NCBI GenBank assembly: GCA_019057795.1
Contig: JAHLWS010000060.1
Span: 15,432-79,431 of the forward strand
DNA from: Promethearchaeota archaeon
GTDB lineage: Archaea > Asgardarchaeota > Lokiarchaeia > Sigyniarchaeales > SOKP01
DNA length: 64,000 bases
Reading direction: 5' to 3'
The position numbers and the translations under genes were made by a program. Each line of letters opens with the position of its first letter. The stretch's first letter is position 1. The notes under the pieces were generated by a model. That model was not told the DNA's origin and did no database searches. It saw only the letters and a list, made by a program, of their open reading frames with translations. Positions 22,246 to 61,812 of this stretch are shown in pieces.

Positions 22246-23127
22246 GTGAGGAATATCGTAAATAAAACGAAAGCTTCAAAAAGAAGATTTAAAAAAGCAG
22301 AAGATATAATAAAAAAAGAAATAGAAAAGTCAAAGAATTACCTTAATATTGCTGGTGTGATTATTTTAGCTCTTGATACAGAAGGTAATATTATGTTACT
22401 AAATAAAAAAGGTCATAGAATACTTCAATACAACGAAGGAGAATTAATAGGAAGAAATTGGTTTAAAACATGCCTTCCTAAACGATATAGAGAAAATACT
22501 TATGAAACTTTCAATAAATTAATACAAGGCCAACTTGAACTCACAGAGTTTTACGAAAACCCCATATTGACCAAAAATGGAGATGAAAGAATAATTGCTT
22601 GGCATAACTCTTTATTATTTGACAGTAATGGAAATGTAATTGGAACATTAAGTTCAGGAGAAGACATCACCGAGCGCAAAAGAGCAGAGGAAAATTTAAA
22701 AGATTCTGAAGAAAAATATCGATATTTATTTGATAGCGCCCAAGTTGGGTTATATTGGTCAAAAATTAGTGATGGTAACTTTTTAGAATGTAATGATACT
22801 TTTGCCAAATTATTTGGATATGATACGCGAGAGGAATTTTTAGCAAATTATAATGCTATTGAGCATTACCTTGATCCAAATGCGCGGAGTGAACTATTAG
22901 AAGAAATCCGTGACAATAAAGAAATTAAGAATTATGAAATACATGTCACCAAAAGAGATGGTACTCCAATTTGGGTGAGTATATCTGCTCGAATGTTTGA
23001 AAATGAAAACCGTATTGAAGGTGCTGCTATTGATATCACCGAACGCAAGATAGCAGAGAGGGAACTGCAACTTGAGCGAGATAACTTCATAAATATTTTA
23101 AATTCAACGAGGGAAAAGGGAGTATAA
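22246..23127 (+). pseudogene. PAS-PAS sensor protein, C-terminally truncated (no output domain)
   Basis: Two PAS/PAC domains (GEDITERK, AIDITERK); ends at the start of a third PAS linker. Confidence 0.7.
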
Positions 23128-23296
23128 CTAAGGTTTCTGGAATAAGTCCTCCTTCTCCTGAAAGAACAGTAATTGTTTTAATTCCTATATAAAGTCTATC
23201 AGATTGGGGTATATCTCCTAATAAAACTACAGGATTAGGACCAACCTCCTCGTTCATCTCAGTGTATAAAATTCCATTAATTAGTTCTGTCTCCAT
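23087..23296 (-). pseudogene. Truncated N-terminal longin/uDENN-like domain, paralog of the 60757 N-terminus
   Basis: LINGILYTEMNEEVGPNP...IGIKTITVLSGE..IPETLVILPFPSLNLK aligns to LINAIVYTEIHDALGPNP...IGIKTVTILTGD..TPESLFIIPFPSLRLK. Confidence 0.8.
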
Positions 23297-31677: not shown

Positions 31678-33201
31678 TTAAGAGATATACCTTATTAGTA
31701 AATCTTGTGTACGGTCAAGAAAATCTTGAATGTTTTGGTTAATTTTCTCTTTTGTGCTCTCGTTGTCTAATAAGAAAAGAATGAACATATCGTAATGTAA
31801 AACCTTAATTTTCTTAAACAAAATAACTGAGTTTGAAACTTTAAATACCACTTCGCCCTTCTCTGCAGCTTTATATTTTGAAAATATTTTAAACAACATG
31901 GCAAATTGTGGAGCTACAACCTCAAATATGTTTAATAAATCCTCAGATTTTTGCATTTTTGTGATTTTCATTGCCTCAGGAGTATAAAATTCAGCCAATA
32001 CTAATCCATCGTTGCTTAACAAGAGCGCCAAACACGCGTTAGTTTTTGACGAAAATATATGAAGGTTATGTTCGATCAAGTCTCTGTTTGGACTTAATTT
32101 GGCTATACCTGAAGAAAAAGCTCTTAAAATAGTAAAGATTTGAAATACACTTGTTATGTAAATTTCAGGACTTTTGTCTAAAGAGATTTTAGCTAACTTA
32201 TTTTTTATTACTTTTAAATAATTTTTAATTTCTTTAGAATCAATTATGTCGGGGTCTCCTTTCGATAAAATGTAGATAATTGGAGTTGCCTGTTCTAGTT
32301 GAGCTAATGCTTTTTTTATATTTTTAAGATATTCAAAACTTTCTTCAAATCGGGCTTTATTTTTTATATCAATGAAATAGAAAAGCAAATCTGCTTCGAA
32401 TAAATAGATCTGGGCTTTATTAAGATATTTTTCGTGGTATGCTTTTTGACCACCTAAGTCCCACAGAAAAATTGTAGCCCCTAGTGCTTCTATTGAACTT
32501 ACATCTGCCCCCCTCGTAGGTTTTAATCCAATCAATTTTGAAAATTTTCTATCTATTGAAAGCAAAAAGCTCGTCTTCCCACTATCGTCAAGGCCCGCGA
32601 ATAAAATTTTCATTTTTCTTTGCGATGTAATAGGCGTTACTGGAGTTTTTTCAATTGTGATTATTTTTTTTAAAAGGCTCTTAAAATAACGTTTTACTTG
32701 CTCTTGTGGTTGGAACTCTTCAGCAATTATTTTATCAAACTGGTTAAAGAAATCGATAACAATATTTTTTAATCGATTGATGTTGTTATACAAGAATCCT
32801 CTTTGATTCTCGTCTACTAATATGCAGAAAGCAGTTGCCAAAGGAGCTTCATCAAATTTTACTTCAACAAAATGAAAAAATGTAAGTGCTGTTAAATGAA
32901 AATCTGGAAATGGGATAACTCCAAAGTATTGGTATTGCTTTAGCAAAGCGGAGTCTTTATTAAATAACGTCCCGTCCCCGAGGAGAAGGCTTAAGGTTTT
33001 AATTGAGATTTGCGTATAATCTCTTAAAGACATTTTAAGCCCTTTTCCAACTAATTTTTCTTTATTTTCAACTCCCAAAGCTTTCTCCTTAATTGGTTTA
33101 GGGAACATATAAATTGGTTGAGGACCTAATTTGTCGTAGGCGCAAAACACTAGTCCTTTGACCAAAGAAAACTCAATTAAATCATCCATTACATAGAACA
33201 T
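31678..33201 (-). CDS. Longin/uDENN-like + Rag/Arf-like GTPase + Roadblock-like fusion protein
   Basis: N-terminal FCAYDKLGPQP; GLDDSGKT, PTRG, WDLGGQ, SKGD, TSVF; C-terminal ALLLSNDGLVLA; paralog of 45335..46747. Confidence 0.85.
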   Translation of the reverse strand: MFYVMDDLIEFSLVKGLVFCAYDKLGPQPIYMFPKPIKEKALGVENKEKLVGKGLKMSLRDYTQISIKTLSLLLGDGTLFNKDSALLKQYQYFGVIPFPDFHLTALTFFHFVEVKFDEAPLATAFCILVDENQRGFLYNNINRLKNIVIDFFNQFDKIIAEEFQPQEQVKRYFKSLLKKIITIEKTPVTPITSQRKMKILFAGLDDSGKTSFLLSIDRKFSKLIGLKPTRGADVSSIEALGATIFLWDLGGQKAYHEKYLNKAQIYLFEADLLFYFIDIKNKARFEESFEYLKNIKKALAQLEQATPIIYILSKGDPDIIDSKEIKNYLKVIKNKLAKISLDKSPEIYITSVFQIFTILRAFSSGIAKLSPNRDLIEHNLHIFSSKTNACLALLLSNDGLVLAEFYTPEAMKITKMQKSEDLLNIFEVVAPQFAMLFKIFSKYKAAEKGEVVFKVSNSVILFKKIKVLHYDMFILFLLDNESTKEKINQNIQDFLDRTQDLLIRYIS

Positions 33202-35650: not shown

Positions 35651-36475
35651 ATGAGATCAAATCAGATTATGAAGAAATATTCCCTAACGTTCTTTTTCAT
35701 AATATCCTACTTAATAATGATTATTCCTGTTATTATTAGAGTGTTCGCTCCTCAAGTTATACCGATAGCACTTTTCTGGATTTTGACTATTTGGAGTCCT
35801 ACATTTTCTGCTATTATCGTGTCCGGATTAATCGGTGGTTGGGCAGAGATCAAAAAGCTATTTGGAGGTTTTTTAAGATGGAAAGTAGGAATTAAATGGT
35901 ATATTGCTGGTTTTTTTCTTATGGTTGGTCCGCTGATTTTTAGTGGATTTTATATTCTATTTGGAGGTTCAGTGCCAGGACCAGTTCCAGGATTAACAAT
36001 ACCAATAATTCTTTCTAATTTGCTTTTCACTTTGGTTTCGGGCCCCTTAAGTGAAGAGGCAGGTTGGCGTGGATTTGCTTTACCAAAACTTCAATCAAAA
36101 TTTAATGCAGTTTCCTCAAGCTTAATTCTAGGAGTTATATGGGCATGTTGGCACATTCCACTATACTTTATCGAAGATCGGATCCCATTCTACATTTTTA
36201 TATTCCTTGTGTTAGTCATTTCGTTTTTAATGACTTGGGGGTATAACAATACGAAAGGGAGTCTAATAATCACGATTATCTTCCACTTTAGCTTTAATTT
36301 TAACGGAGCATTTATTACAGGATTATTTGGATTATTGCCTACGATGATATTCTATATAGGTGGAGGTGTTATGATCGGAATATATTTAATAGCGGTTGTA
36401 GTTTATGCTGGTCCCGAAAAACTTTCCCGCAAACCGGATTCAGAAATGCCTTATATCAAATTTAAAGAGGAATAA
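35651..36475 (+). CDS. CPBP family intramembrane metalloprotease (CAAX protease/Abi)
   Basis: EEAGWRG, WACWH, FHFSFN motifs; multiple TM segments. Confidence 0.92.
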   Translation: MRSNQIMKKYSLTFFFIISYLIMIIPVIIRVFAPQVIPIALFWILTIWSPTFSAIIVSGLIGGWAEIKKLFGGFLRWKVGIKWYIAGFFLMVGPLIFSGFYILFGGSVPGPVPGLTIPIILSNLLFTLVSGPLSEEAGWRGFALPKLQSKFNAVSSSLILGVIWACWHIPLYFIEDRIPFYIFIFLVLVISFLMTWGYNNTKGSLIITIIFHFSFNFNGAFITGLFGLLPTMIFYIGGGVMIGIYLIAVVVYAGPEKLSRKPDSEMPYIKFKEE

Positions 36476-36670: not shown

Positions 36671-37660
36671 ATGGTTGTGAGATTTCAATTGACAATTCAA
36701 TATTTATCAAAAGATAAAAAAGTTAAAAAGGAAGCTATAGCGTCACCTAGTAAAATTTTATTTACGGGTCTCGATAACGCAGGCAAAACAACAATTATTT
36801 ATGCAATACAGAGGGAATTTTCGAAAATCGCGTTTCTAAAGCCAACAAGAGGTGCCCAAAGAAGGATTTTTGAATTTCTAGGTCGAGAAATAGCTGAATG
36901 GGACCTTGGAGGTCAATTTAGCTATAGAATAGCTTATTTAAAGAATCCAGGAAAGTATTTCGATGACACTGAGATTGCAGTTTATGTAATAGATGTTCAA
37001 AATCACGCAAGAATGCCCGAGGCTATCAGTTATTTTAAAGACGTAGTAGAGCAATTTAAAAAGCTGGAAATAGAGCCGAGCATCTATGTGTTTTTCCATA
37101 AATACGATCCTGCGTTAAGACGAAACGCTTTAAACGAAATGAAGGCCCTTGAAATAGAATTAAAAGAAAAAATAAAAAGTGTGGTAGATTATAAGAAAAT
37201 CTTTTATTACAATACTTCAATCTACGATTTACCCACTATCATTAAAGCCATGTCTGAAATTCTTTTAAATATATACCCTAAATCGGAATTAATTGAAAAA
37301 ACAATCGTAGAATTTGGCAAAAAGACTTATTCTGAAGGTGTTGTTTTACTAGACGACAATAGTCTTATCGTAGGTAGTTATTACAAAGACGAGGAAACAA
37401 AGAATCTCCTCAGCGCTTCAACTCCCTATTTTTTAACCCTTAACGATAGCTTTGTTTTTACTAAAGCTCAACCAAGCCGCGAAGAAGAGGAAAATCACAT
37501 GATTGTGCAAAGATATGGAAAGAATTTCATCTTCAAGCAGCTTTCTTTAAAAGACGACTCTACTCCGTATTATTTACTTATGCTTAAACAAGATCCAAAT
37601 ATTAACAAAGAGGATTTTGATTGTTTTTCTAATTTATTAACAGAGATCCTATATAGTTAA
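36671..37660 (+). CDS. Rag/Gtr-like (Arf-related) small GTPase with C-terminal Roadblock-like domain
   Basis: GLDNAGKT, PTRG, WDLGGQ, HKYD, TSIYD (Rag-type G4/G5); C-terminal GVVLLDDNSLIVG. Confidence 0.85.
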   Translation: MVVRFQLTIQYLSKDKKVKKEAIASPSKILFTGLDNAGKTTIIYAIQREFSKIAFLKPTRGAQRRIFEFLGREIAEWDLGGQFSYRIAYLKNPGKYFDDTEIAVYVIDVQNHARMPEAISYFKDVVEQFKKLEIEPSIYVFFHKYDPALRRNALNEMKALEIELKEKIKSVVDYKKIFYYNTSIYDLPTIIKAMSEILLNIYPKSELIEKTIVEFGKKTYSEGVVLLDDNSLIVGSYYKDEETKNLLSASTPYFLTLNDSFVFTKAQPSREEEENHMIVQRYGKNFIFKQLSLKDDSTPYYLLMLKQDPNINKEDFDCFSNLLTEILYS

Positions 37661-37790: not shown

Positions 37791-38807
37791 ATGATCATTT
37801 GTTCTAATTGTGGTGCGACCAATAACGAGGAGAGCGGTCATATTTGTAGAAAATGCGGCGCTCTGCTCCCAACTTCCCACAGAACTCCAAGAATTAGACT
37901 TGCTCATAGTAAAAAGGATAAAAAAGAAGTAAAACCTCAGAAAAGAACTCCTGATGAGAAAAAAGTTTCTAAACCTAAACTAGATCATTTAGACTTACAA
38001 GAGATCCCAAAACCCGAAAAATTAAACGAAGTTGAGGATGTTCTTATTGAAACCCAAACCTCCTTCGAATACGAAGATGTCGAAGAGTTCGTAGAAAGCG
38101 AACTGGAAGATGATGAAGAAGATACAGACGCTTTAAAAGAAATTACGCCTCAACCTTATAAAGGATCAATTATTGCGGATAAAGGAGTTTTCGGACCATC
38201 CCGACAAGTTAGGAGACGTGCTGATACAAAATCACGGGTCGCTTCAAAAACAACCGTATCCCCATCTGAAAAGGAGTCTGTGCTTTTAAAGCAAAAGCAA
38301 CTAGAAGAAGATATGTCAAAGGTATTGTCATTTTTATCTAAAAAAATAACAGTTAAGCCGTTAGAATCTATAAAAAAACAAAAACAAGGTATTCAAGAGA
38401 AACCAGAAAAAAAAATACCTCCTTCCAGCATGAACGAAATTTTAAAGGATTTATTGAAGCTGGACCTACATATTGAAGCCTCCGCAATTATTAAAGGTGA
38501 TGGTACGATTCTCGCTTCAGCAATTTCATCAAGAATTTCAGAAACTTTATTTGCAACAATTGGTCAGAATTTATCCATGATTGGAGATGATATTATCAAG
38601 GGCTTAAGCGCTGGAACCTTGTTGAACATTTCCATAAGGGGAACTGATGGAGTTTTAGACCTCGCGCCCATTGGTTCAAAAAAATCATTTGGAGATGACA
38701 TGATTTTAATAATTCTTTCACATCCTCGCGTTAAATCAGGAATAATATATTTTGCTGTTAGTATCGTGAAAAAACAAGTAAAACAATATTTAGGATTATT
38801 AAAATAG
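37791..38807 (+). CDS. Zinc ribbon + disordered/acidic linker + Roadblock/LC7 domain protein
   Basis: CSNCG...CRKCG; C-terminal IEASAIIKGDGTILASA...GTLLNISIRGTDG, MglB/Roadblock pattern. Confidence 0.8.
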   Translation: MIICSNCGATNNEESGHICRKCGALLPTSHRTPRIRLAHSKKDKKEVKPQKRTPDEKKVSKPKLDHLDLQEIPKPEKLNEVEDVLIETQTSFEYEDVEEFVESELEDDEEDTDALKEITPQPYKGSIIADKGVFGPSRQVRRRADTKSRVASKTTVSPSEKESVLLKQKQLEEDMSKVLSFLSKKITVKPLESIKKQKQGIQEKPEKKIPPSSMNEILKDLLKLDLHIEASAIIKGDGTILASAISSRISETLFATIGQNLSMIGDDIIKGLSAGTLLNISIRGTDGVLDLAPIGSKKSFGDDMILIILSHPRVKSGIIYFAVSIVKKQVKQYLGLLK

Positions 38808-39747: not shown

Positions 39748-40989
39748 TTAAGATTTCTTTAGTTTTTTACTTACAAGGATTGTAACGACGGAAAGAATGC
39801 CAATTAGAACGAATAGATTATATCCCGGGATTTTAAACTCAGGTCCATCGTCCCAAATCGGGAAATTGTCTTGAGAACTTGCCGTACCTGTAATATCATA
39901 TGAAGTATCTCCTATACCGTCATCGTTAGCATCAACCCCAGGATAATCTGACCAATAATTACCTATTGTTCCATTATCCCATTGGTTATTATTCCCATTA
40001 TCTTCAGCATTAGCGTCAAGATTATTAATAAATGTATTATTAAATATTAGATTATCATGGCCACCAGCATGTATCAAAATTCCAGCTGTATTGTTAAATA
40101 TTGTGTTTCCCGATATCGTGTTATTATTACCATAAAATAATTCTATCCCCACTTCTCCGTTGGAATTTACATTGTTTCCCGAAATGGTATTATTATTAAA
40201 GTCTCCTAAATACATTCCCATTCTTGAGTTCCCTGTAATGTTGTTAAGGGATAGAATATTATTATTACCACTTAATTCAATGCCATATAGTCCAGTTCCA
40301 TAGCCACCATTGTTGCATGCGGTGTTTCTTGAAACATTGTTATTATCACCACCAATACTTATACCCACAACTTTGTTATAACTCGCGATGTTTTCTGAAA
40401 TGATGCTATAATTTCCCCCTAAACCCATTCCACTATTATTGTTATGATTTGCTGTGTTTTTGACAAAGGTGTTATTATCACCAATCATACTCATACCCGT
40501 ATCGCTGTTATAACTTACGGTGTTTTCCGAAATGATGCAATTATTACAATCTTCTACCTGTATACCATAGTCGTTATAACTTGCATTATTTCCCGTAACG
40601 ATGTTGTTATCACATGAATATATGTCTATTCCAATAAATGAATTATAAACCGTACAATTTTCAACCTTGAAATATACGCTTGAAAATTGAATCCAGATGC
40701 CAGTTCCCGAGCCTCCACCATCTATCACCAAGTCTTCTATGACATAAGGATCGGAATAGGTACCAGAGCCTGTGCATATTCCCGCAGTCACGGCATCAGT
40801 CCAATTATTGTAGATATGAATTTTTCCCGATACTTTAGAGATTTTCAAATTTTCGTCGTTAAAGTTAATGACATTGCTGAAATCCGACTCTTTATTAACC
40901 GCAGTAAAAATAGGATTACTGTTAATTATGAGTAAGGATGCGAAAACGATTCCAATCGTAACACAAATTATTTTATTTTTTCTTATCAT
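39748..40989 (-). CDS. NosD/right-handed beta-helix cell-surface protein with IPGY-TM-basic C-terminal sorting signal
   Basis: N-terminal hydrophobic signal, GSGTYSDPYVIED, Asn-rich PbH1 repeats, GNYWSDY..D..DDGIGD, IPGYNLFVLIGIL...KKLKKS. Confidence 0.88.
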   Translation of the reverse strand: MIRKNKIICVTIGIVFASLLIINSNPIFTAVNKESDFSNVINFNDENLKISKVSGKIHIYNNWTDAVTAGICTGSGTYSDPYVIEDLVIDGGGSGTGIWIQFSSVYFKVENCTVYNSFIGIDIYSCDNNIVTGNNASYNDYGIQVEDCNNCIISENTVSYNSDTGMSMIGDNNTFVKNTANHNNNSGMGLGGNYSIISENIASYNKVVGISIGGDNNNVSRNTACNNGGYGTGLYGIELSGNNNILSLNNITGNSRMGMYLGDFNNNTISGNNVNSNGEVGIELFYGNNNTISGNTIFNNTAGILIHAGGHDNLIFNNTFINNLDANAEDNGNNNQWDNGTIGNYWSDYPGVDANDDGIGDTSYDITGTASSQDNFPIWDDGPEFKIPGYNLFVLIGILSVVTILVSKKLKKS

Positions 40990-41024
40990 TTTATTTCACC
41001 TAAAATTTTTGTTATTTAATCATT

Positions 41025-42344
41025 TCAATAAGATTTCTTTATTTTCTTACTTAAAACGATTGCTACAATGGGTAGGATGCCAAGAAGAACGTATAGATTA
41101 TATCCCGGGATTTTAAACTCAGGTCCATCGTCCCAAATCGGGAAATTGTCTTGAGAACTTGCCGCACCTGTAATATCATATGGAGTATCTCCTATACCGT
41201 CATCGTTAGCATCAACTCCAGGATAATCTGACCAATAATTTCCTAATGTACTACTATTCCAATTGTTATTATTCCCATTATCTTCAGCATTAGCGTCAAT
41301 ATTATTAATAAACGTATTATTAAACACTAGATTATCAGAACAACCAGCGGATATCAATACTCCCGTGCCCGTGTTATCAATTATTTGATTTCCTTCAATA
41401 ATATTTAGTCCACTCTGTCCATCAAGGAGAAAACCATAGTTGTTATATTTTACGAAATTTCTGGTAATGTTATTGGATAATGCGTTAGGGCCCGAATCGG
41501 AATTCCATAAATGTATACCATATCCCGAATTATTCACGACGTAATTTCCTGAAATTGTGTTGTTTGGTGTTCTCACAGAGATACCTTGGCTATTATAACT
41601 ACAATTATTAGATAATACTAAGTTATTTGTACTGCTGGCTTGCATGTGTATTCCAAGCCATCCATTGAAACTAACAGTATTATTAACAATTTCATTATAA
41701 GAACTATTAGGGTCTAAACTAATTCCCTTATTCCCATTATTATTGACAGTATTTTCCATAATGTAATTATTACTACTCTCCATTAGATTCATGCCACATT
41801 CTGTATTACTATTAATAATATTCCCTTGAATGGTATTATTCTCACAAATTCCATCAAAAGTTATTCCTTCCCCATTAAATGAGCAATTGTTATTAATTAA
41901 TTGTCCATTCTTTGTGTTGCTTAATAGAATACCGAACATATCCCGGATACTTCCCGAATCGTAGAGGGTACAATTTTTAATCATAAAGTACACATTGGAA
42001 TTTTCAATTACGATGCAACTATCCGAACCGCCATCTATTACGAAATCCTCTATGACATAAGGGGAAGAATATGTACCATCACCGGTACATTTACCCGCCG
42101 CCTTAGTAGCAATCCAATTAAAACTTGGATTATCATCATCAATATAAATTGGTCCCGATATTTTTGAGAGTTTCAAATTTTGGTTGTCGAAATTTTCTGA
42201 ATATTTATCGTTTATTCCCGCATTAAAACTGAGATAATTGGAAATTGTAGGTGATAAAGCGAATATGATTCCCAGCGTGATTAAAATCAGTATTATTGAT
42301 TTTGCACTTGATTTCATTTGAATTACTTTTCTTCGCATTTTCAT
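41025..42344 (-). CDS. NosD/beta-helix cell-surface protein with IPGY sorting tail, paralog 2
   Basis: Same architecture; C-terminal DNA nearly identical to the neighbouring paralogs. Confidence 0.88.
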   Translation of the reverse strand: MKMRRKVIQMKSSAKSIILILITLGIIFALSPTISNYLSFNAGINDKYSENFDNQNLKLSKISGPIYIDDDNPSFNWIATKAAGKCTGDGTYSSPYVIEDFVIDGGSDSCIVIENSNVYFMIKNCTLYDSGSIRDMFGILLSNTKNGQLINNNCSFNGEGITFDGICENNTIQGNIINSNTECGMNLMESSNNYIMENTVNNNGNKGISLDPNSSYNEIVNNTVSFNGWLGIHMQASSTNNLVLSNNCSYNSQGISVRTPNNTISGNYVVNNSGYGIHLWNSDSGPNALSNNITRNFVKYNNYGFLLDGQSGLNIIEGNQIIDNTGTGVLISAGCSDNLVFNNTFINNIDANAEDNGNNNNWNSSTLGNYWSDYPGVDANDDGIGDTPYDITGAASSQDNFPIWDDGPEFKIPGYNLYVLLGILPIVAIVLSKKIKKSY

Positions 42345-42588
42345 TTACCTTCTTTTTTTATCAAATTTCATTATCAATTATAATTATATTTATTGATAAC
42401 GATCAAATTTCTATTGTTGATTATGGAATATAAAGATTATGCTGAAATTAACCAGTAAATTTTTACTTTTACCGGTAAAGTAGGTAATAATTAGGTTAAT
42501 ATCCTTTATATACATTTTAGTCTATTAGGGAACAAATCAATTAATATTTTTGCCAATTAGGTTTAGTGGGTAATCATGATATAATGAT
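42324..42588. repeat. About 265 bp duplicated upstream/promoter region, copy 1, ending in 13-bp repeat copy 2 (42576..42588)
   Basis: Near-identical to 43996..44260. Confidence 0.9.
42468..42479. promoter_or_regulatory. Palindrome TTTACCGGTAAA, putative regulator site
   Basis: Perfect 12-bp palindrome, also at 44140..44151, upstream of the beta-helix genes. Confidence 0.4.
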
Positions 42589-42651
42589 TAATAAAAAAGG
42601 TTAAGTACTAAGTATTTTTGAAAAATAAAACAAAAAGGAAAAAAATTATTT

Positions 42652-44016
42652 TTAATATTTCTTCAGTTTTTTACTTAAAGTGATTGATACAACTGATAGA
42701 ATGCCAAGTAGAACGAATAGATTATATCCCGGGATTTTAAATTCAGCTCCATCGTCCCAAATCGGGAAATTGTCTTGAGAACCTGCAGAACCATTAATAG
42801 TATATGGAGTATCTCCTATACCGTCATCGTTAGCATCAACCCCAGGATAATCTGACCAATAATTACCTATTGTTCCATTATCCCATTGGTTATTTGTTCC
42901 TTCATCATAACCATTATTAACTAAATTCCCTTCAATCGTGTTACTGAATATAATATTATTTTTGCTGTCAGGTCCTAATTGAATTCCAGATTCGTCATTA
43001 AAGCCTATAGTGTTTCCTGAAATAAAATTATTACTGCTTGTTATTATAATCCCGTTTCCATTATTAGTTATAATATTATCTAAAAAGGTTTGATTGTCAT
43101 GGTATACTTCTATTCCGATAGCGGAACTATCATTAACGTAATTGGCTATCACTGTGTTATTATGACTTTGCTCAACAAAACATATTCCCCATGTATTATT
43201 GTTAACAAAATTTTTTGAAATCCAATTATTATTACTGCTCCCATGGAAACCTATCCCATCGCCACTAGAGTGCTTAACGGTATTATTAAAAATTATTGTA
43301 TAATTTGTATTACCTAGACCAATTCCGCCACCATTATTTAACATTATATTTCCTGAAACAATATTATTATCTGTCTCTAATAAACTGATCCCCACTTCCC
43401 CGTTGTGATTTGCAGTGTTTCCCGAAATAGTATTATTATAGCTATTAGCTATAATTAGCCCATTATCAATGCTCTTGCTTATGATGTTTCCAGAGATGGT
43501 GTTATTATCACTAGATTCTAAGTATATACCAATATAGTTGTCATGAATAATATTGTCAATTAATTGCCCATTATCAACATCTATTGCAAGTTTGATTCCT
43601 GTATCATCCCAATTATTTCCTGAATTGTAAAGAGTACAATTTTCAATATTGAAATACACATCGGAATTTTGTATCCAGATACAACTTCCCGAGCCTCCGC
43701 CATCTATTACCAAATCTTCAATAACATAAGGATCGGAAAATGTGCCTGAACCTGTACACCATGAATAAATACTCTCTGTAGCAGACCAATTATTGTCAAT
43801 GTGAATCTTTCCCGAAACTGCTGAGAGTTTCAAATTTTCGGTATCTAAATTAATATCATCGCTATATTCTGCCCTTTTGCTGCTATTGCCCGTAATAAAA
43901 CTAAGATTAGTGGTAATTACAGGTGAGAAAGCGAACATGATTCCTAACACGATTAAAATCAATATTATTGATTTTGCCTTTGATTTCATTTTAACTACTT
44001 TTCTTCGCATTTTCAT
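42652..44016 (-). CDS. NosD/beta-helix cell-surface protein with IPGY sorting tail, paralog 3
   Basis: Same architecture, ends IPGYNLFVLLGILSVVSITLSKKLKKY. Confidence 0.88.
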   Translation of the reverse strand: MKMRRKVVKMKSKAKSIILILIVLGIMFAFSPVITTNLSFITGNSSKRAEYSDDINLDTENLKLSAVSGKIHIDNNWSATESIYSWCTGSGTFSDPYVIEDLVIDGGGSGSCIWIQNSDVYFNIENCTLYNSGNNWDDTGIKLAIDVDNGQLIDNIIHDNYIGIYLESSDNNTISGNIISKSIDNGLIIANSYNNTISGNTANHNGEVGISLLETDNNIVSGNIMLNNGGGIGLGNTNYTIIFNNTVKHSSGDGIGFHGSSNNNWISKNFVNNNTWGICFVEQSHNNTVIANYVNDSSAIGIEVYHDNQTFLDNIITNNGNGIIITSSNNFISGNTIGFNDESGIQLGPDSKNNIIFSNTIEGNLVNNGYDEGTNNQWDNGTIGNYWSDYPGVDANDDGIGDTPYTINGSAGSQDNFPIWDDGAEFKIPGYNLFVLLGILSVVSITLSKKLKKY

Positions 44017-45334: not shown

Positions 45335-46747
45335 ATGTCGAAACCAAAAACAGAGATCATAAAGTCAATTGTTTTAAGTGTGTTTGACGACGATGGTCCA
45401 ACTCCAAAAATATATTGGCCAAGTAATATGGACGAATCTTCGCGATTATTAATTGCAATGAAAACGATTAGCTTACTTATGGGCGATTCAATATATCAAA
45501 ATAGTACATCTACAGAAGAAGTAAACTATTTTGGAATATTACCCTTTCCTGATTTAAAGTTTAATGGATTAACTTACTTTTTTCTAATTTATGATCCAAA
45601 AGCAAGAGGAAATGCTAAAGCGGCTACAATAACTGTGTTAATAAACGAGGAAGATAGGGTTTTTTTCTACGAAAATATGAAATATTTAAGAGTAATTATC
45701 GATAGTGCCGCCTCAAAAGTTCAATTAACAAAATCTTTAGAAGAAAATGAAGTTATCATAAATGAATTAAGAGAAGAATTGTTAGAATTTACAAGTGAAA
45801 TAAAAGACCCATTTTCTTTAAAACGACAAATCAAAATTTTATTTACCGGTTTAGACAAGGCAGGTAAAACGGTTTTTCTTCTGGCGGTTCAAAAGCGATA
45901 TTCTGAGATTATTAAAGCGTTACCGACCAAAGGAGTAGCAAGAACGGAAGAAAAGATATTTGAAGAACAAAACTCGACTATATCAATTTGGGATCTAGGT
46001 GGGCAAAAGCAATATCGCGAAAAGTTTCTCGAACAACGCAAGATTTACTTATATAACGTAGATTTACTCTTTTACATTATAGACATTCAAGATTCCGAAA
46101 GGATTGCAGAAGCAATAGAATTATTTAAAAAAGTAACAGATTCTCTACTAGAGTTAGACGAATTTCCTCCGATCGTTGTATGTCTAAATAAATACGACCC
46201 TGATATACAGAAGTCAAAAGAAATTAAAAATAATCTAAAAACTTTAAACGAAGAAATTAGTAAGATTTCTGGAGGGTTTTTCGTTAAAATTTTTGAAACC
46301 TCGATTTTTGACCATTGGTCTTTGATATCTGCTTACTCTTACGGACTTTCACAACTCAGTCCAAATAGAGAGTTGTTCGAAAACCAATTGAAACATTTCG
46401 CTAAGAAAATAAATTCTGATGCAATACTTCTGCTCAATGAAAACGGAATAATTTTGTCAAACTTTTCTAAAACAGGCATTTCCGAAAAGGTTTTTGAAAT
46501 TTCGGCGCCGCATTTCCAGACGCTCTACAAAACATTTAAGGAATTTAAGTTACTAAAACAAGATTTCTTAATTTCTTCAGGAATAACAAACCAATCTAAA
46601 AAAATAATATTTAAAAAGATCCCCGTTGAAAAATACAATCTATATTTGTTACTCTTTATGGAAAAGGATTTAAATCTAGAAAAAATCGATAAGAATTTAC
46701 CAAAATTCTCTAAAAATCTTAAGGATTTAATTCACACCTATATTTAA
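45335..46747 (+). CDS. Longin/uDENN-like (DPKARG motif) + Rag/Arf-like GTPase + Roadblock-like fusion protein
   Basis: SVFDDDGPTP, IYDPKARG; GLDKAGKT, PTKG, WDLGGQ, NKYD, TSIFD; C-terminal AILLLNENGIILS. Confidence 0.87.
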   Translation: MSKPKTEIIKSIVLSVFDDDGPTPKIYWPSNMDESSRLLIAMKTISLLMGDSIYQNSTSTEEVNYFGILPFPDLKFNGLTYFFLIYDPKARGNAKAATITVLINEEDRVFFYENMKYLRVIIDSAASKVQLTKSLEENEVIINELREELLEFTSEIKDPFSLKRQIKILFTGLDKAGKTVFLLAVQKRYSEIIKALPTKGVARTEEKIFEEQNSTISIWDLGGQKQYREKFLEQRKIYLYNVDLLFYIIDIQDSERIAEAIELFKKVTDSLLELDEFPPIVVCLNKYDPDIQKSKEIKNNLKTLNEEISKISGGFFVKIFETSIFDHWSLISAYSYGLSQLSPNRELFENQLKHFAKKINSDAILLLNENGIILSNFSKTGISEKVFEISAPHFQTLYKTFKEFKLLKQDFLISSGITNQSKKIIFKKIPVEKYNLYLLLFMEKDLNLEKIDKNLPKFSKNLKDLIHTYI

Positions 46748-48151: not shown

Positions 48152-48793
48152 ATTATCTATAAGATTTTTTTAATTGATTCCGACAATGGGATCTCAATAC
48201 TAGAAGCTACGTTTAAAGAACTAAAAAAAGATAAAATACCTAACGGTGTCATACCGGGTTTCTTCAAAGAAATAAACGATATTATTGATGTAATCCAAGC
48301 TGCTATGGTTAAGGGAAAAAATGGAAACGAAATTATTAGAATTGTCGAATCTGAAAACTCTACCATTATTATTATTTATCATCCCCTTTCAAGAATCCTA
48401 TTTTGTTCAATTTCTGACGCAGATGATGATATAGATAAATTAATTGAAGTAAATAAAAAAATCACTAACAGATTTTGGAAAAAACACCAATCAGATATAA
48501 AAATCTTTAGAACAACTTCAGAAAAATCTAGATTTCAAACGATTATTGCTGATATCGAAAATTTGACCCGTGGAGGAACGATAGCAGAGGTTTTTCCAAA
48601 ATTGCTTGTCGTAAAAAATGTTATGGAAAAGATTTTGGCAATGGGAATGATTAGCGAATATGATTTTCAAGTTGCTTTAAAATGCACTGGTAATGCCTCA
48701 CCGCTAAGAATCGCGAGGGATTTAGGTAAAACGCGGAACATTGTTAACGAAGTTTTAAAAAGATTAGAGCAATTAGACATAATTAAACTTTAA
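48152..48793 (+). CDS. Longin-like + winged-helix protein; probable true start upstream of the 48305 ATG (ATT at 48152)
   Basis: Frame open from 48140 reading IIYKIFLIDSDNGISILE...GFFKEIN (longin beta1-beta2-alpha1); C-terminal SPLRIARDLGKTRNIVNEVLKRLEQLDII wHTH. Confidence 0.65.
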   Translation: MIYKIFLIDSDNGISILEATFKELKKDKIPNGVIPGFFKEINDIIDVIQAAMVKGKNGNEIIRIVESENSTIIIIYHPLSRILFCSISDADDDIDKLIEVNKKITNRFWKKHQSDIKIFRTTSEKSRFQTIIADIENLTRGGTIAEVFPKLLVVKNVMEKILAMGMISEYDFQVALKCTGNASPLRIARDLGKTRNIVNEVLKRLEQLDIIKL

Positions 48794-60756: not shown

Positions 60757-61812
60757 ATGAATGTGCAAAAGGGATTAATAAACGCAATTGTTTACACAGA
60801 GATACACGACGCGTTAGGACCAAATCCTATTTATTGGTATCCTTCTAGTTTACCAGAAAACATTAGAATGCTAATTGGAATTAAAACAGTTACAATCCTT
60901 ACAGGAGATCAAGGAATCACACCAGAATCTCTCTTTATTATCCCATTTCCATCTTTAAGGTTAAAAGGGTTAATAAGATATATTGAAAGGGAAGATGAAA
61001 CCCGAAGAGGGGGGTACGCTAGGTCAGCTATTACTTTCTTGTTTAAAGAAGAGGACGATGTTATTTTCTATAAATATATGGTTTACATTAAAGCCCCTTT
61101 CAACGAAGCAGCGAGAAAAATTATAGAATTAGAAAACCAACAGGCTGATAGTGAAAGAATTTTTGAAGAGATAAAATTATTAGGAGATAGCATTAGTAAG
61201 CTACTCGAAGATTATAGAAGTAAAGAGATTTCTCCACTCTCTAGTGAAGAATTTCCCGAACATAGAGATAAAAAAATAGAAAAAGTTAAGTTTAAACTCA
61301 AATTAGTTGTTGTAGGAGACCCTGGGGTAGGAAAAACATCAACAATTCTACGATTTTCCGATAATGCATTTCTTAGAACTTACATTCCTACCATGGGAGT
61401 TAATATCACGGAGAAAAGCTTTCGCGTTAAAAAAGACGTCCTTGAAGTGATATTATGGGATATAGCAGGGCAATCAAAATTCCAAACGATGAGAAGACAC
61501 TTTTATCAAGGCTCAGAAGCTATTATACTTATTTTTGATTTAACAAATCCATTAACTTTTAGAAGTATAAAGAATTGGTACGATGATGTAATAAAGAATA
61601 TGGATAAGCAGCCTAAAATGATAGGTTATATTTTTGGAAACAAAAGCGATTTGGTAGACGAAAGAAAAGTTCAAGAAAGCGAAGGGTTAGCATTAGCTAA
61701 AGAGTTAAATCTGGAATACATAGAAACCAGCGCTTTGACAGGAAATAACATTGAAAACGCTTTTTATAAAATAGCAGAAGCAGTAATTGATACGCATTTA
61801 GAAGAAACTTAA
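60757..61812 (+). CDS. Longin/uDENN-like + Rab-like GTPase fusion
   Basis: YTEIHDALGPNP, DETRRGG; GDPGVGKT, PTMGV, WDIAGQ, NKSD, TSA. Confidence 0.88.
   Translation: MNVQKGLINAIVYTEIHDALGPNPIYWYPSSLPENIRMLIGIKTVTILTGDQGITPESLFIIPFPSLRLKGLIRYIEREDETRRGGYARSAITFLFKEEDDVIFYKYMVYIKAPFNEAARKIIELENQQADSERIFEEIKLLGDSISKLLEDYRSKEISPLSSEEFPEHRDKKIEKVKFKLKLVVVGDPGVGKTSTILRFSDNAFLRTYIPTMGVNITEKSFRVKKDVLEVILWDIAGQSKFQTMRRHFYQGSEAIILIFDLTNPLTFRSIKNWYDDVIKNMDKQPKMIGYIFGNKSDLVDERKVQESEGLALAKELNLEYIETSALTGNNIENAFYKIAEAVIDTHLEET

What the first reader, a model, noticed from the sequence alone, without database searches (positions are those of the whole stretch)
45335..46747. Rag-like GTPase fused to an FLCN/SMCR8-type longin domain that retains the GAP arginine finger
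Seen: the N-terminal domain reads IVLSVFDDDGPTP...TYFFLIYDPKARG (Arg91, codon 45605-45607). A GTPase with Rag-type TSIFD and a Roadblock-like C-terminus follow. Established: the eukaryotic Rag/Arf GAPs FLCN, SMCR8 and NPRL2 have N-terminal longin (uDENN) domains starting F-x-x-x-x-G-P and use a longin-loop arginine finger. From memory, not aligned here, these loops read DSLARG in FLCN and DLEARG in SMCR8. Rag GTPases are GTPase+Roadblock. Inference: one polypeptide joins a Rag-like GTPase to its cognate GAP module, a possible fused ancestor of the mTORC1 nutrient-sensing switch. Longin/DENN domains are known in Asgard genomes, but I am not aware of this Arg-finger fusion being characterised.
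Basis: partly seen in the sequence, partly recalled or inferred. Interest (0 to 1): 0.88.

Follow-up and report, generated by a model that had tools for sequence, protein, structure and literature searches.

The report
Rag-like GTPase with folliculin-type longin
A Lokiarchaeial gene joins, in one protein, a Rag-like GTPase switch and a domain of the kind that human folliculin, SMCR8 and NPRL2 use to switch such GTPases off, with the key arginine conserved. The layout and the motif were each published separately, so this is a testable pairing rather than a new kind of system.

Summary
The ORF at 45335-46747 (+) is real: 470 aa, built as longin, helical linker, Rag-like GTPase, roadblock.

- **Longin domain.** It folds confidently (pLDDT 92.6). 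Its best eukaryotic structural matches are the longin-GAP subunits Lst4, C9orf72, FLCN, GATOR1 and SMCR8.
- **Motifs.** A family profile aligns G21-P22 with SMCR8 G68-P69 and Arg91 with the SMCR8 catalytic R147, at a marginal E of 0.06. Arg91 is kept in 120 of 121 close orthologs and in 71 of 95 family representatives.
- **GTPase part.** It matches LokiRagO (8yl2), RagA/C and Gtr1/2.

No tool could place Arg91 at a nucleotide: the longin/GTPase-roadblock complex test gave weak support only. The orthogroup was found in one order only, so "fused ancestor of the mTORC1 switch" is not supported.

Added here: a syntenic paralog (31678-33201, minus strand) keeps GP but lacks the arginine. This asymmetry maps to a single split in a tree built from the GTPase-roadblock part alone. 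A LokiRagO ortholog lies between the two genes in all eight genomes compared.

Both pieces are already published: the layout by Tran 2024 and Liu 2021, the GP/Arg motif in Asgard longins in Traffic 2025. This scan reached the same reading on orthologs in other genomes.

The parts
45335..46747 (+). Whole gene: 470-aa longin - linker - Rag-like GTPase - roadblock protein (P0001), stop codon included
   Evidence: 120 full-length homologs at 73-96% identity
45335..45727 (+). Longin domain, residues 1-131. Strands 9-18, 21-28, 65-71, 76-86, 94-104; helices 34-48 and 105-131
45395..45400 (+). GP motif (G21-P22) at the start of strand 2
   Evidence: G in 89/95 and P in 88/95 family representatives. 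Aligned to SMCR8 G68-P69
45605..45607 (+). Arg91 (AGA), candidate arginine finger in the strand 4 - strand 5 loop (D-P-K-A-R-G, residues 87-92)
   Evidence: Invariant in the 65-sequence Arg+ alignment and aligned to SMCR8 R147. ARG in 118/121 close orthologs
45737..45796 (+). Helical linker, residues 135-154
45812..46354 (+). Rag-like small GTPase domain, residues 160-340. G1 GLDKAGKT 172-179; switch I T198; switch II WDLGGQ 219-224; G4 NKYD 285-288; G5 TSIFD 322-326
   Evidence: Pfam Gtr1_RagA E 1e-25 and Arf E 1.7e-20. 8yl2 E 2.2e-37 and RagA E 1.5e-13. Motif positions
46367..46744 (+). Roadblock (Rag C-terminal-type) domain, residues 345-470
   Evidence: Secondary structure. RagA/Gtr1 alignments run to residues 406-416. 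Foldseek matches of 300-320 columns to 8yl2, RagA/C and Gtr1/2
31678..33201 (-). Paralog P0122 (507 aa), same three-domain layout. GP is kept, but the loop is one residue shorter and has no Arg (K-F-D-E-A-P). G4 is SKGD
   Evidence: Syntenic with the Arg+ gene in 8 genomes
36671..37660 (+). GTPase-roadblock protein without longin (329 aa), ortholog of crystallised LokiRagO. Lies between the two longin-bearing paralogs
   Evidence: 8yl2 E 2.7e-90. Pfam Gtr1_RagA E 2.5e-25. Conserved position
60757..61812 (+). Same longin type (GP, E-T-R-R-G-G) fused to a Rab/Ras-like GTPase, with no roadblock (P0123, 351 aa)

Best explanation
The gene encodes a self-contained small-GTPase switch of a Lokiarchaeial (Promethearchaeota) archaeon. 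It has an N-terminal longin domain of the folliculin/SMCR8/NPRL2 'GAP-longin' class, a helical linker, a Rag-like GTPase with intact G1-G5 motifs and catalytic Gln224, and a roadblock domain of the type through which Rag GTPases dimerise.

Shown: the domain identities, the conservation of GP and Arg91, and the alignment of Arg91 to the SMCR8 catalytic arginine.

Inferred: the protein dimerises through its roadblock and/or longin domains, with itself or with its syntenic Arg-less paralog (31678-33201). Arg91, next to the GP hairpin, is then inserted into a GTPase nucleotide pocket of the assembly to speed up GTP hydrolysis. That pocket could be its own, the partner's, or that of the neighbouring LokiRagO-type protein. 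This would make the longin a built-in off-switch.

The fusion is best read as a lineage-specific 'Rosetta stone'. It links Asgard GAP-type longins to Rag-like GTPases. It is not the ancestor of the eukaryotic Rag-FLCN/GATOR1 system.
For: **Fold.**
- The AF2 N-domain model has pLDDT 92.6 and beta-beta-alpha-beta-beta-beta-alpha topology, with GP at the start of strand 2 and R91 in the 87-93 loop.
- Foldseek gives the same set.

**Sequence.**
- Pfam Folliculin is the only family hit by many members: 24/95, best E 1.1e-6.
- The Arg+ profile's only non-family PDB hit is SMCR8 (E 0.061), with GP on G68-P69 and the invariant R on R147.

**Conservation.**
- R91 is kept in 71/95 representatives and xRG in 120/121 orthologs.
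- The Arg is lost only together with a one-residue loop deletion, in a paralog lineage that keeps GP.
- A tree built from the GTPase-roadblock part alone separates Arg+ from Arg- proteins at one branch, support 100/97.

**GTPase.**
- Gtr1_RagA E 1e-25. LokiRagO E 2.2e-37 and RagA E 1.5e-13.
- The first 41 Foldseek hits of the full model are all Rag-family chains.
- G1-G5 and Gln224 are intact, and there is no intrinsic arginine in the P-loop.

**Linkage to GTPases.**
- 52/95 family representatives carry a small-GTPase domain.
- The Arg+ gene, the Arg- gene and a LokiRagO ortholog keep the same order in 8 genomes of 4 genera.

**Complex test (longin vs GTPase-roadblock, with GTP and Mg).**
- Weak support: ipSAE 0.59, best control 0.00.
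- In calibration, 58 of 80 solved complexes and 2 of 110 mismatched pairs reached the mark. At 0.60 or under, only 7 of the 80 solved complexes did so, and so did both passing mismatches.
- The three runs agree in at least 75% of contacts, and the partner's pLDDT is at least 82.
- Like complexes are solved (8DHB, 7T3B, 7MGE), so the pass may reflect likeness to those.
Against: - No measurement or model places Arg91 at a nucleotide. The full-length monomer has pTM 0.56 and a low-confidence switch I.
- The SMCR8 alignment is marginal (E 0.061), and no residue-level alignment to FLCN R164 or NPRL2 R78 was obtained.
- P0001 itself scores below Pfam Folliculin's gathering cut-off (18.9-20 bits against 23.3).
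- The closest solved relative, 8yqg, lacks the Arg. The fold therefore does not require it, and members without it exist.
- Two divergent Arg+ representatives (P0134, P0137) have a degenerate switch II but keep ARG. This argues against a purely cis action.
- The conserved gene order could reflect relatedness within one family rather than function.
Confidence: 0.55

Rival explanations
1. The longin domain is a dimerisation or platform module, GEF-like or effector-binding as in most longin and roadblock proteins. The conserved Arg-Gly loop then serves a non-catalytic role such as partner binding, phosphate or lipid contact, or loop structure. GTP hydrolysis would rely on Gln224 alone or on an unrelated factor.
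For: The solved family member 8yqg is a longin dimer without the Arg. 24 of 95 representatives lack the Arg yet keep the domain and mostly GP. Longin and roadblock platforms act mainly as GEFs (PMC10933270, introduction). No geometry puts Arg91 near a nucleotide.
Against: The Arg, the GP hairpin and the fold all match the one longin class that acts as a GAP (PMC12290439). A structural residue would not be lost cleanly in one paralog lineage while staying nearly invariant in its sister.
Confidence: 0.25
2. Arg91 is a true GAP finger, but its substrate is a separate GTPase rather than a longin-bearing paralog. The leading candidate is the longin-less LokiRagO-type protein encoded between the two paralogs (36671-37660). 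Other Arf- or Rab-like GTPases of the cell are also possible. The fused GTPase would then regulate or localise the GAP.
For: The LokiRagO ortholog keeps its place between the Arg- and Arg+ genes in all 8 genomes compared. P0134 and P0137 keep ARG although their own switch II is degenerate. Eukaryotic longin GAPs act in trans on separate Rag or Arf proteins (PMC12290439).
Against: Not tested directly. The only complex test run shows weak support for contact with the protein's own GTPase-roadblock part. More than half of the family is covalently fused to a GTPase, which favours an intramolecular or intradimer target.
Confidence: 0.17
3. The resemblance is convergent or by chance: an ordinary archaeal longin-GTPase fusion whose Arg-Gly loop merely looks like the FLCN/SMCR8 motif.
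For: Sequence links to eukaryotic proteins are weak (SMCR8 E 0.061; Pfam Folliculin below its cut-off).
Against: Four lines agree: the fold ranking, two motifs aligned in register, Pfam Folliculin hits in 24 members, and near-invariance.
Confidence: 0.03

Closest known systems
Longin-GTPase-roadblock Rag-like GTPases of Ca. Prometheoarchaeum syntrophicum MK-D1 (Tran et al. 2024, PMC10933270). [quoted passage not shown]
   Same: Same three-domain layout, same phylum, and a Rag-like GTPase that is also close to Arf. AF2-based dimers through roadblock domains are proposed there.
   Different: Those papers do not discuss an arginine finger or a GP motif in the fused longin. They also do not mention the Arg+/Arg- paralog pair or its conserved neighbourhood.
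Asgard 'FLCN/SMCR8-type' longins with GP motif and arginine finger (Traffic 2025, PMC12290439)
   Same: The GP motif before or at strand 2, and an arginine in the same arrangement as in FLCN, NPRL2 and SMCR8.
   Different: That paper leaves open which GTPases are the partners. Here the longin is covalently joined to a Rag-like GTPase (or to a Rab-like one at 60757-61812). Its sequence supplement is not held, so I could not check whether any of its 15 proteins is such a fusion.
Eukaryotic longin-GAP heterodimers: SMCR8-C9orf72 (Arf GAP; 6LT0, 7MGE), FLCN-FNIP2 (RagC/D GAP; 6NZD, 6ULG, 8DHB), NPRL2-NPRL3 in GATOR1 (RagA/B GAP; 7T3B)
   Same: The longin fold, the GP hairpin and the loop arginine, aligned to SMCR8 R147. 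One Arg-bearing and one Arg-less paralog occur together. Both archaeal paralogs keep GP, as do SMCR8 and C9orf72.
   Different: There is no DENN domain and none of the other subunits. The GAP-type longin is on the same chain as a GTPase. GAP activity is untested. Sequence similarity is marginal.
LokiRagO (PDB 8YL2) and LokiRagM (8ZLA/9M28), crystallised Rag-like GTPases of Lokiarchaeota
   Same: The GTPase-roadblock part of P0001 matches 8yl2 at E 2.2e-37 with 31% identity in the structural alignment.
   Different: LokiRagO has no N-terminal longin domain. Its true ortholog in this window is the 36671-37660 gene (E 2.7e-90). No paper on these entries was found in the library.
Longin domain of a Lokiarchaeota Roadblock-Longin protein (PDB 8YQG)
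   Different: It has E-P-E where this family has A-R-G, and it follows a roadblock domain instead of preceding a GTPase.

Membership tests
FLCN/SMCR8/NPRL2-class 'GAP longin' domain | Longin fold (beta-beta-alpha-beta-beta-beta-alpha) | tested here: met
FLCN/SMCR8/NPRL2-class 'GAP longin' domain | Structurally closer to the GAP-complex longins than to SNARE, TRAPP, adaptor or SRP longins | tested here: met
   Lst4 12.5, C9orf72 12.4, 6nzd_H 12.3, 6ulg_N 11.1, 8fw5_C 11.0 and SMCR8 10.4, against VAMP7 9.3, TRAPP 9.2 and others at 9 or less. The margin at the lower end is about 1 Z unit, so it is modest. Foldseek gives the same order.
FLCN/SMCR8/NPRL2-class 'GAP longin' domain | GP motif at the strand 1 - strand 2 hairpin | tested here: met
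   G21-P22 at the start of strand 2. Kept in 89 and 88 of 95 representatives. Aligned to SMCR8 G68-P69, the positions named in PMC12290439.
FLCN/SMCR8/NPRL2-class 'GAP longin' domain | Loop arginine equivalent to SMCR8 R147, FLCN R164 and NPRL2 R78 | tested here: met
   The invariant Arg of the Arg+ profile aligns to SMCR8 R147 (E 0.061, marginal). Equivalence to FLCN R164 and NPRL2 R78 was not obtained at residue level. No structural superposition of side chains is possible with these tools.
FLCN/SMCR8/NPRL2-class 'GAP longin' domain | Sequence-profile match to Pfam Folliculin (PF11704) | tested here: inconclusive
   P0001 scores 18.9-20 bits, below the 23.3 cut-off. However, 24/95 family members hit it at E 0.1 or better (best 1.1e-6), and no other family is hit by more than 3.
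FLCN/SMCR8/NPRL2-class 'GAP longin' domain | GTPase-activating activity that depends on the arginine | not testable with these tools
   Needs a GTP hydrolysis assay of wild type against R91A.
Folliculin or SMCR8 proteins proper (longin + DENN) | C-terminal DENN domain after the longin | tested here: not met
   The longin is followed by a GTPase and a roadblock domain, with no DENN hit. It is therefore a relative at the domain level, not an FLCN or SMCR8 ortholog.
Rag/Gtr GTPase family | Small GTPase domain followed by a C-terminal roadblock domain | tested here: met
   Pfam Gtr1_RagA 167-376, E 1e-25. RagA/Gtr1 alignments run to residues 406-416. Foldseek gives 300-320 aligned columns to 8yl2, RagA/C and Gtr1/2.
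Rag/Gtr GTPase family | Rag-type motifs (HKxD in G4; Rag P-loop) | tested here: not met
   G4 is NKYD and G1 is the Arf-like GLDKAGKT. G5 TSIFD is Rag-like. 'Rag-like' is justified; RagA/C orthology is not.
Rag/Gtr GTPase family | Dimerisation through the roadblock domains | not tested
Asgard longin-GTPase-roadblock Rag-like GTPases (Tran et al. 2024) | Longin, then Rag-like GTPase, then roadblock, on one chain in a Lokiarchaeial genome | tested here: met
   Homologs are named Lokiarchaeota or Promethearchaeota by their sources. Orthologs occur in 26 of 27 other genomes of the same order.

The most novel reading that the evidence does not exclude
The Arg-bearing protein (45335-46747) and its Arg-less, GP-retaining paralog (31678-33201) form an obligate heterodimer. 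That dimer would combine two things on two chains: a Rag-type GTPase heterodimer joined by roadblocks, and an asymmetric SMCR8-C9orf72 or FLCN-FNIP-type longin GAP pair. The single arginine of one chain would fire hydrolysis on the other chain's GTPase. This would be a prokaryotic, all-in-one prototype of the asymmetric Rag cycle, possibly working with the LokiRagO-type protein encoded between them.
Probability: 0.3. Interest if true: 0.8.

Novelty: new member of a known kind. Interest (0 to 1): 0.55.

Why it matters
Eukaryotic nutrient sensing depends on longin-domain GAPs (FLCN-FNIP, GATOR1, and for Arf the C9orf72-SMCR8 complex) acting on Rag and Arf GTPases. Where that pairing came from is an open question. 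The 2025 survey of these GAPs (PMC12290439) found the GP and Arg motifs in Asgard longins and explicitly asked which archaeal GTPases they act on.

This gene family offers a candidate answer by domain fusion: the GAP-type longin is covalently tied to a Rag-like GTPase, and in a sister family to a Rab-like one.

It also offers a very simple experimental system. One soluble 470-aa protein, one point mutant (R91A) and one natural Arg-less paralog would test whether arginine-finger catalysis by longin domains predates eukaryotes.

It is not evidence for an archaeal mTORC1 pathway.

Tried and rejected
**Searches that gave nothing useful**
- phmmer of residues 1-160 against PDB sequences found nothing at E up to 10.
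- The profile of the longin-Rab subfamily (A8) gave only 8yqg and spurious Toc33-like hits, with no FLCN or NPRL2.
- The profile of the roadblock-longin and other Arg+ members (A9) gave SMCR8 only over the GP half, at E 0.96. A residue-level check against FLCN R164 and NPRL2 R78 therefore failed.
- The Atlas feature search gave only archaeal clusters, one with Pfam NPR2 on 19% of members. That is a lead only.

**Structure and complex limits**
- The full-length AF2 monomer has pTM 0.56 and pLDDT 74.5, so domain packing is not confident. Model coordinates cannot be read, so no Arg91-to-nucleotide distance could be measured.
- Only one complex job was available, so the P0001-P0122 heterodimer, the P0001 homodimer and longin versus the LokiRagO-type neighbour were not tested.

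**Literature**
- Paper searches for '8YL2', 'LokiRag' and 'Roadblock-Longin' found no paper on the PDB entries.
- The sequence supplement of PMC12290439 is not held.

**Other dead ends**
- Neighbourhoods of the two degenerate-GTPase representatives (P0134, P0137) were uninformative: a contig end and a 1.9-kb contig.
- The sigma-70 promoter and terminator scan does not apply to an archaeon and showed no enrichment.

**Readings rejected**
- FLCN or SMCR8 ortholog: rejected because there is no DENN domain.
- Fused ancestor of the eukaryotic Rag-GAP switch: rejected because the orthogroup was found in one order only and the GTPase has Arf-like G1 and G4 motifs.
Full report
**Observation**

The ORF at 45335-46747 (+) is open for 470 codons.
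- The quoted strings are there. Arg91 is the AGA codon at 45605-45607, and TSIFD is at residues 322-326.
- The protein has about 120 listed full-length homologs at 73-96% identity. Their sources name them Lokiarchaeota or Promethearchaeota.
- It is a real, conserved gene.

**C-terminal two thirds**

- Pfam gives Gtr1_RagA (residues 167-376, E 1e-25) ahead of Arf (E 1.7e-20).
- Against PDB sequences the best matches are 8yl2 (E 2.2e-37) and 8zla. Human RagA and yeast Gtr1 follow, with alignments that run through the GTPase into residues 406-416.
- The fold searches identify 8yl2 as 'LokiRagO, homotetrameric RagA-like small GTPase from Asgard Lokiarchaeota' and 8zla/9m28 as 'LokiRagM'.
- The full-length AF2 model (pLDDT 74.5) shows a Ras-like fold at 160-340 and a roadblock-type element order (alpha-beta-beta-alpha-beta-beta-beta-alpha) at 345-470.
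- Its first 41 Foldseek hits are all Rag-family chains aligned over 300-320 columns.
- The G motifs are intact: GLDKAGKT 172-179, T198, WDLGGQ 219-224 with the catalytic Gln, NKYD 285-288 and TSIFD 322-326.
- G1 and G4 are Arf-like rather than Rag-like. 'Rag-like' is the right word, as Tran et al. also concluded for this class (PMC10933270).

**N-terminal domain**

Residues 1-160 alone find nothing in the PDB by phmmer. An exhaustive search of 1.84 billion representatives does find a family of 114.

Structure:
- With a 95-sequence alignment, AF2 gives pLDDT 92.6 and pTM 0.88. The topology is beta-beta-alpha-beta-beta-beta-alpha plus two helices.
- G21-P22 opens strand 2, and Arg91 sits in the loop 87-93 between strands 4 and 5.
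- The family profile hits the solved 'Longin domain' 8yqg at E 1e-20.

Sequence:
- Pfam Folliculin is matched by 24 of 95 members (best E 1.1e-6). No other family is matched by more than three.
- P0001 itself is below the curated cut-off.
- A profile of the 65 Arg-bearing cores has exactly one non-family hit in the PDB, human SMCR8 (E 0.061).
- In that alignment GP falls on G68-P69 and the invariant arginine on R147 within Y-D-L-E-A-R-G. These are the residues that PMC12290439 names as the GP motif and the catalytic arginine finger.
- I could not obtain the equivalent alignment to FLCN or NPRL2.

**Conservation**

- In the 95 representatives, G21 is kept in 89, P22 in 88, R91 in 71 and G92 in 69.
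- Among 121 close orthologs, 118 read ARG and 120 read xRG.
- The arginine is therefore under strong constraint, but it is not required for the fold. 8yqg has E-P-E at that spot, and a whole paralog lineage lacks it.

The same genome holds four proteins with this domain. Two are longin - Rag-like GTPase - roadblock proteins:
- this gene, which is Arg+;
- 31678-33201 on the minus strand (507 aa), where GP is kept, the loop is one residue shorter and reads K-F-D-E-A-P, and G4 is SKGD.

Two are longin - Rab-like proteins:
- 60757-61812, which has GP and R-R-G-G;
- one on another contig (locus L004), which has neither.

Distribution across 151 Asgard genomes:
- The Arg+ orthogroup was found in 24 of 25 other genomes of the same family and 2 of 2 of a second family of the same order. 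It was found nowhere else at E 1e-30 or better.
- The Arg- paralog is in at least 23 of these 27 genomes.
- In 16 of them it lies on the same contig, 5.8-19.6 kb away.

In eight genomes of four genera the gene order is the same:
1. MtrH
2. the Arg- gene (minus strand)
3. an AIR-synthase-like gene
4. a SLOG/LOG-like gene
5. a longin-less GTPase-roadblock gene
6. a zinc-ribbon protein with a weak roadblock signal
7. a NERD protein
8. a small protein with a weak ATP-cone signal
9. the Arg+ gene
10. in six of the eight genomes, a transglutaminase-like protein

Further points:
- The middle GTPase is the ortholog of crystallised LokiRagO (E 2.7e-90).
- All seven syntenic orthologs of the Arg- gene also lack the arginine and keep GP.
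- A maximum-likelihood tree built only from the GTPase-roadblock part separates Arg- from Arg+ proteins at a single branch (100/97). One ancient event therefore fixed the asymmetry. The groups were defined on the longin and the tree on the rest of the protein.
- Of the 95 family representatives, 52 carry a small-GTPase domain (Arf 52, Gtr1_RagA 37, Ras 35).
- The longin profile itself occurs in 67 of 151 Asgard genomes, in 11 of 27 families, often inside very large open frames.

**Mechanism**

Shown: a GAP-class longin with its two hallmark motifs is fused to an intact Rag-like GTPase. That GTPase has a catalytic glutamine and no arginine of its own.

Inferred: Arg91 completes a GTPase active site.

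Cis or trans cannot be decided here.
- The monomer model does not pack its domains confidently (pTM 0.56).
- The one complex job set longin (33-row alignment) against GTPase-roadblock, with GTP and Mg riding along. It gave weak support: ipSAE 0.59, best control 0.00.
- In calibration, 58 of 80 solved complexes and 2 of 110 mismatched pairs reached the mark. At 0.60 or under, only 7 of the 80 solved complexes did, as did both mismatches that passed.
- The runs agree in at least 75% of contacts, the partner's pLDDT is at least 82, and no contacts were reported.
- Similar complexes are solved (8DHB, 7T3B, 7MGE), so this may be likeness.
- Two divergent Arg+ representatives have lost DxxGQ but keep ARG. 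This is a small hint towards action on another chain.

The Arg+/Arg- pair with GP in both copies resembles SMCR8-C9orf72. The roadblock-bearing paralog pair resembles RagA-RagC. A heterodimer that unites both ideas is the most interesting reading left open, at about 0.3.

**Comparison with what is known**

- The three-domain layout is described for MK-D1 (PMC10933270). Longin-Rag fusions are mentioned by Liu et al. (bioRxiv 10.1101/2020.10.19.343400).
- In the searchable library, no other paper that discusses Asgard longins with an arginine finger was found. The explicit link between the Arg-finger longin and a fused Rag-like GTPase therefore seems unstated.
- Earlier follow-ups of this scan reached the same reading on orthologs in other genomes.
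- The protein is not an FLCN or SMCR8 ortholog, because it has no DENN domain. Its narrow distribution and Arf-like motifs argue for a lineage-specific fusion, not an ancestor of the mTORC1 switch.

**Verdict**

- It is a new member of a known kind.
- Its main value is as a clean experimental handle: R91A, the natural Arg-less paralog, and the crystallisable neighbour.

Noticed in passing
window 23087-23296 (-): A 69-aa ORF that is the N-terminal half of a longin of the longin-Rab type. GP is present, and it ends just before the Arg loop. It is cut off by a stop and overlapped by a PAS-domain ORF on the other strand (22246-23127). It looks like a gene remnant. The A3 profile hit it at E 3.7e-15 with one TGA inside.
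   Followed up: partly
window 35651-36475 (+): An Rce1-like type II CAAX prenyl endopeptidase gene (Pfam E 9.7e-16) lies directly upstream of the LokiRagO-type GTPase gene. No ORF matching it was found in any of the seven other genomes whose syntenic block was compared.
   Followed up: partly
window 39748-44016 (-): Three tandem NosD/right-handed beta-helix surface proteins (413, 439 and 454 aa) are inserted into the otherwise conserved block between the NERD gene and the small ATP-cone-like gene. This explains the larger spacing of the two paralogs in this genome.
   Followed up: partly
window 37791-38807 (+): A 338-aa protein with an N-terminal zinc ribbon (E 0.0015) and a weak Roadblock/LC7 signal at residues 216-296 (E 0.041). 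It lies directly downstream of the LokiRagO-type gene in all eight genomes compared, at only 31-61% identity. It is a candidate partner of that GTPase.
   Followed up: partly
window 60757-61812 (+) and locus L004 1498-2553 (+): A second Arg+/Arg- pair of the same longin type, this time fused to Rab/Ras-like GTPases. The window copy has GP and R-R-G-G. The copy on contig C55 has K-P and K-I-G. One or two such genes often share a contig with the Rag-like cluster in related genomes.
   Followed up: partly
other Asgard genomes, e.g. G102:C1:24651-25019, G119:C49:18775-19131: In other families of the phylum the same longin profile lies inside open frames of about 1,100-3,700 aa. These are giant proteins carrying a folliculin-type longin.
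   Followed up: no
proteins P0134 and P0137 (loci L012, L013): Divergent longin-GTPase-roadblock representatives whose switch II has lost DxxGQ, and whose P-loop is altered in P0134. They still keep the A/V-R-G loop on the longin. They may be pseudo-GTPases that retain the candidate finger.
   Followed up: partly
window 48305-48793 (+): A 162-aa protein with a weak C-terminal winged-helix signal (TrmB E 0.0048) and an unassigned N-terminal domain, two genes downstream of the gene studied.
   Followed up: no
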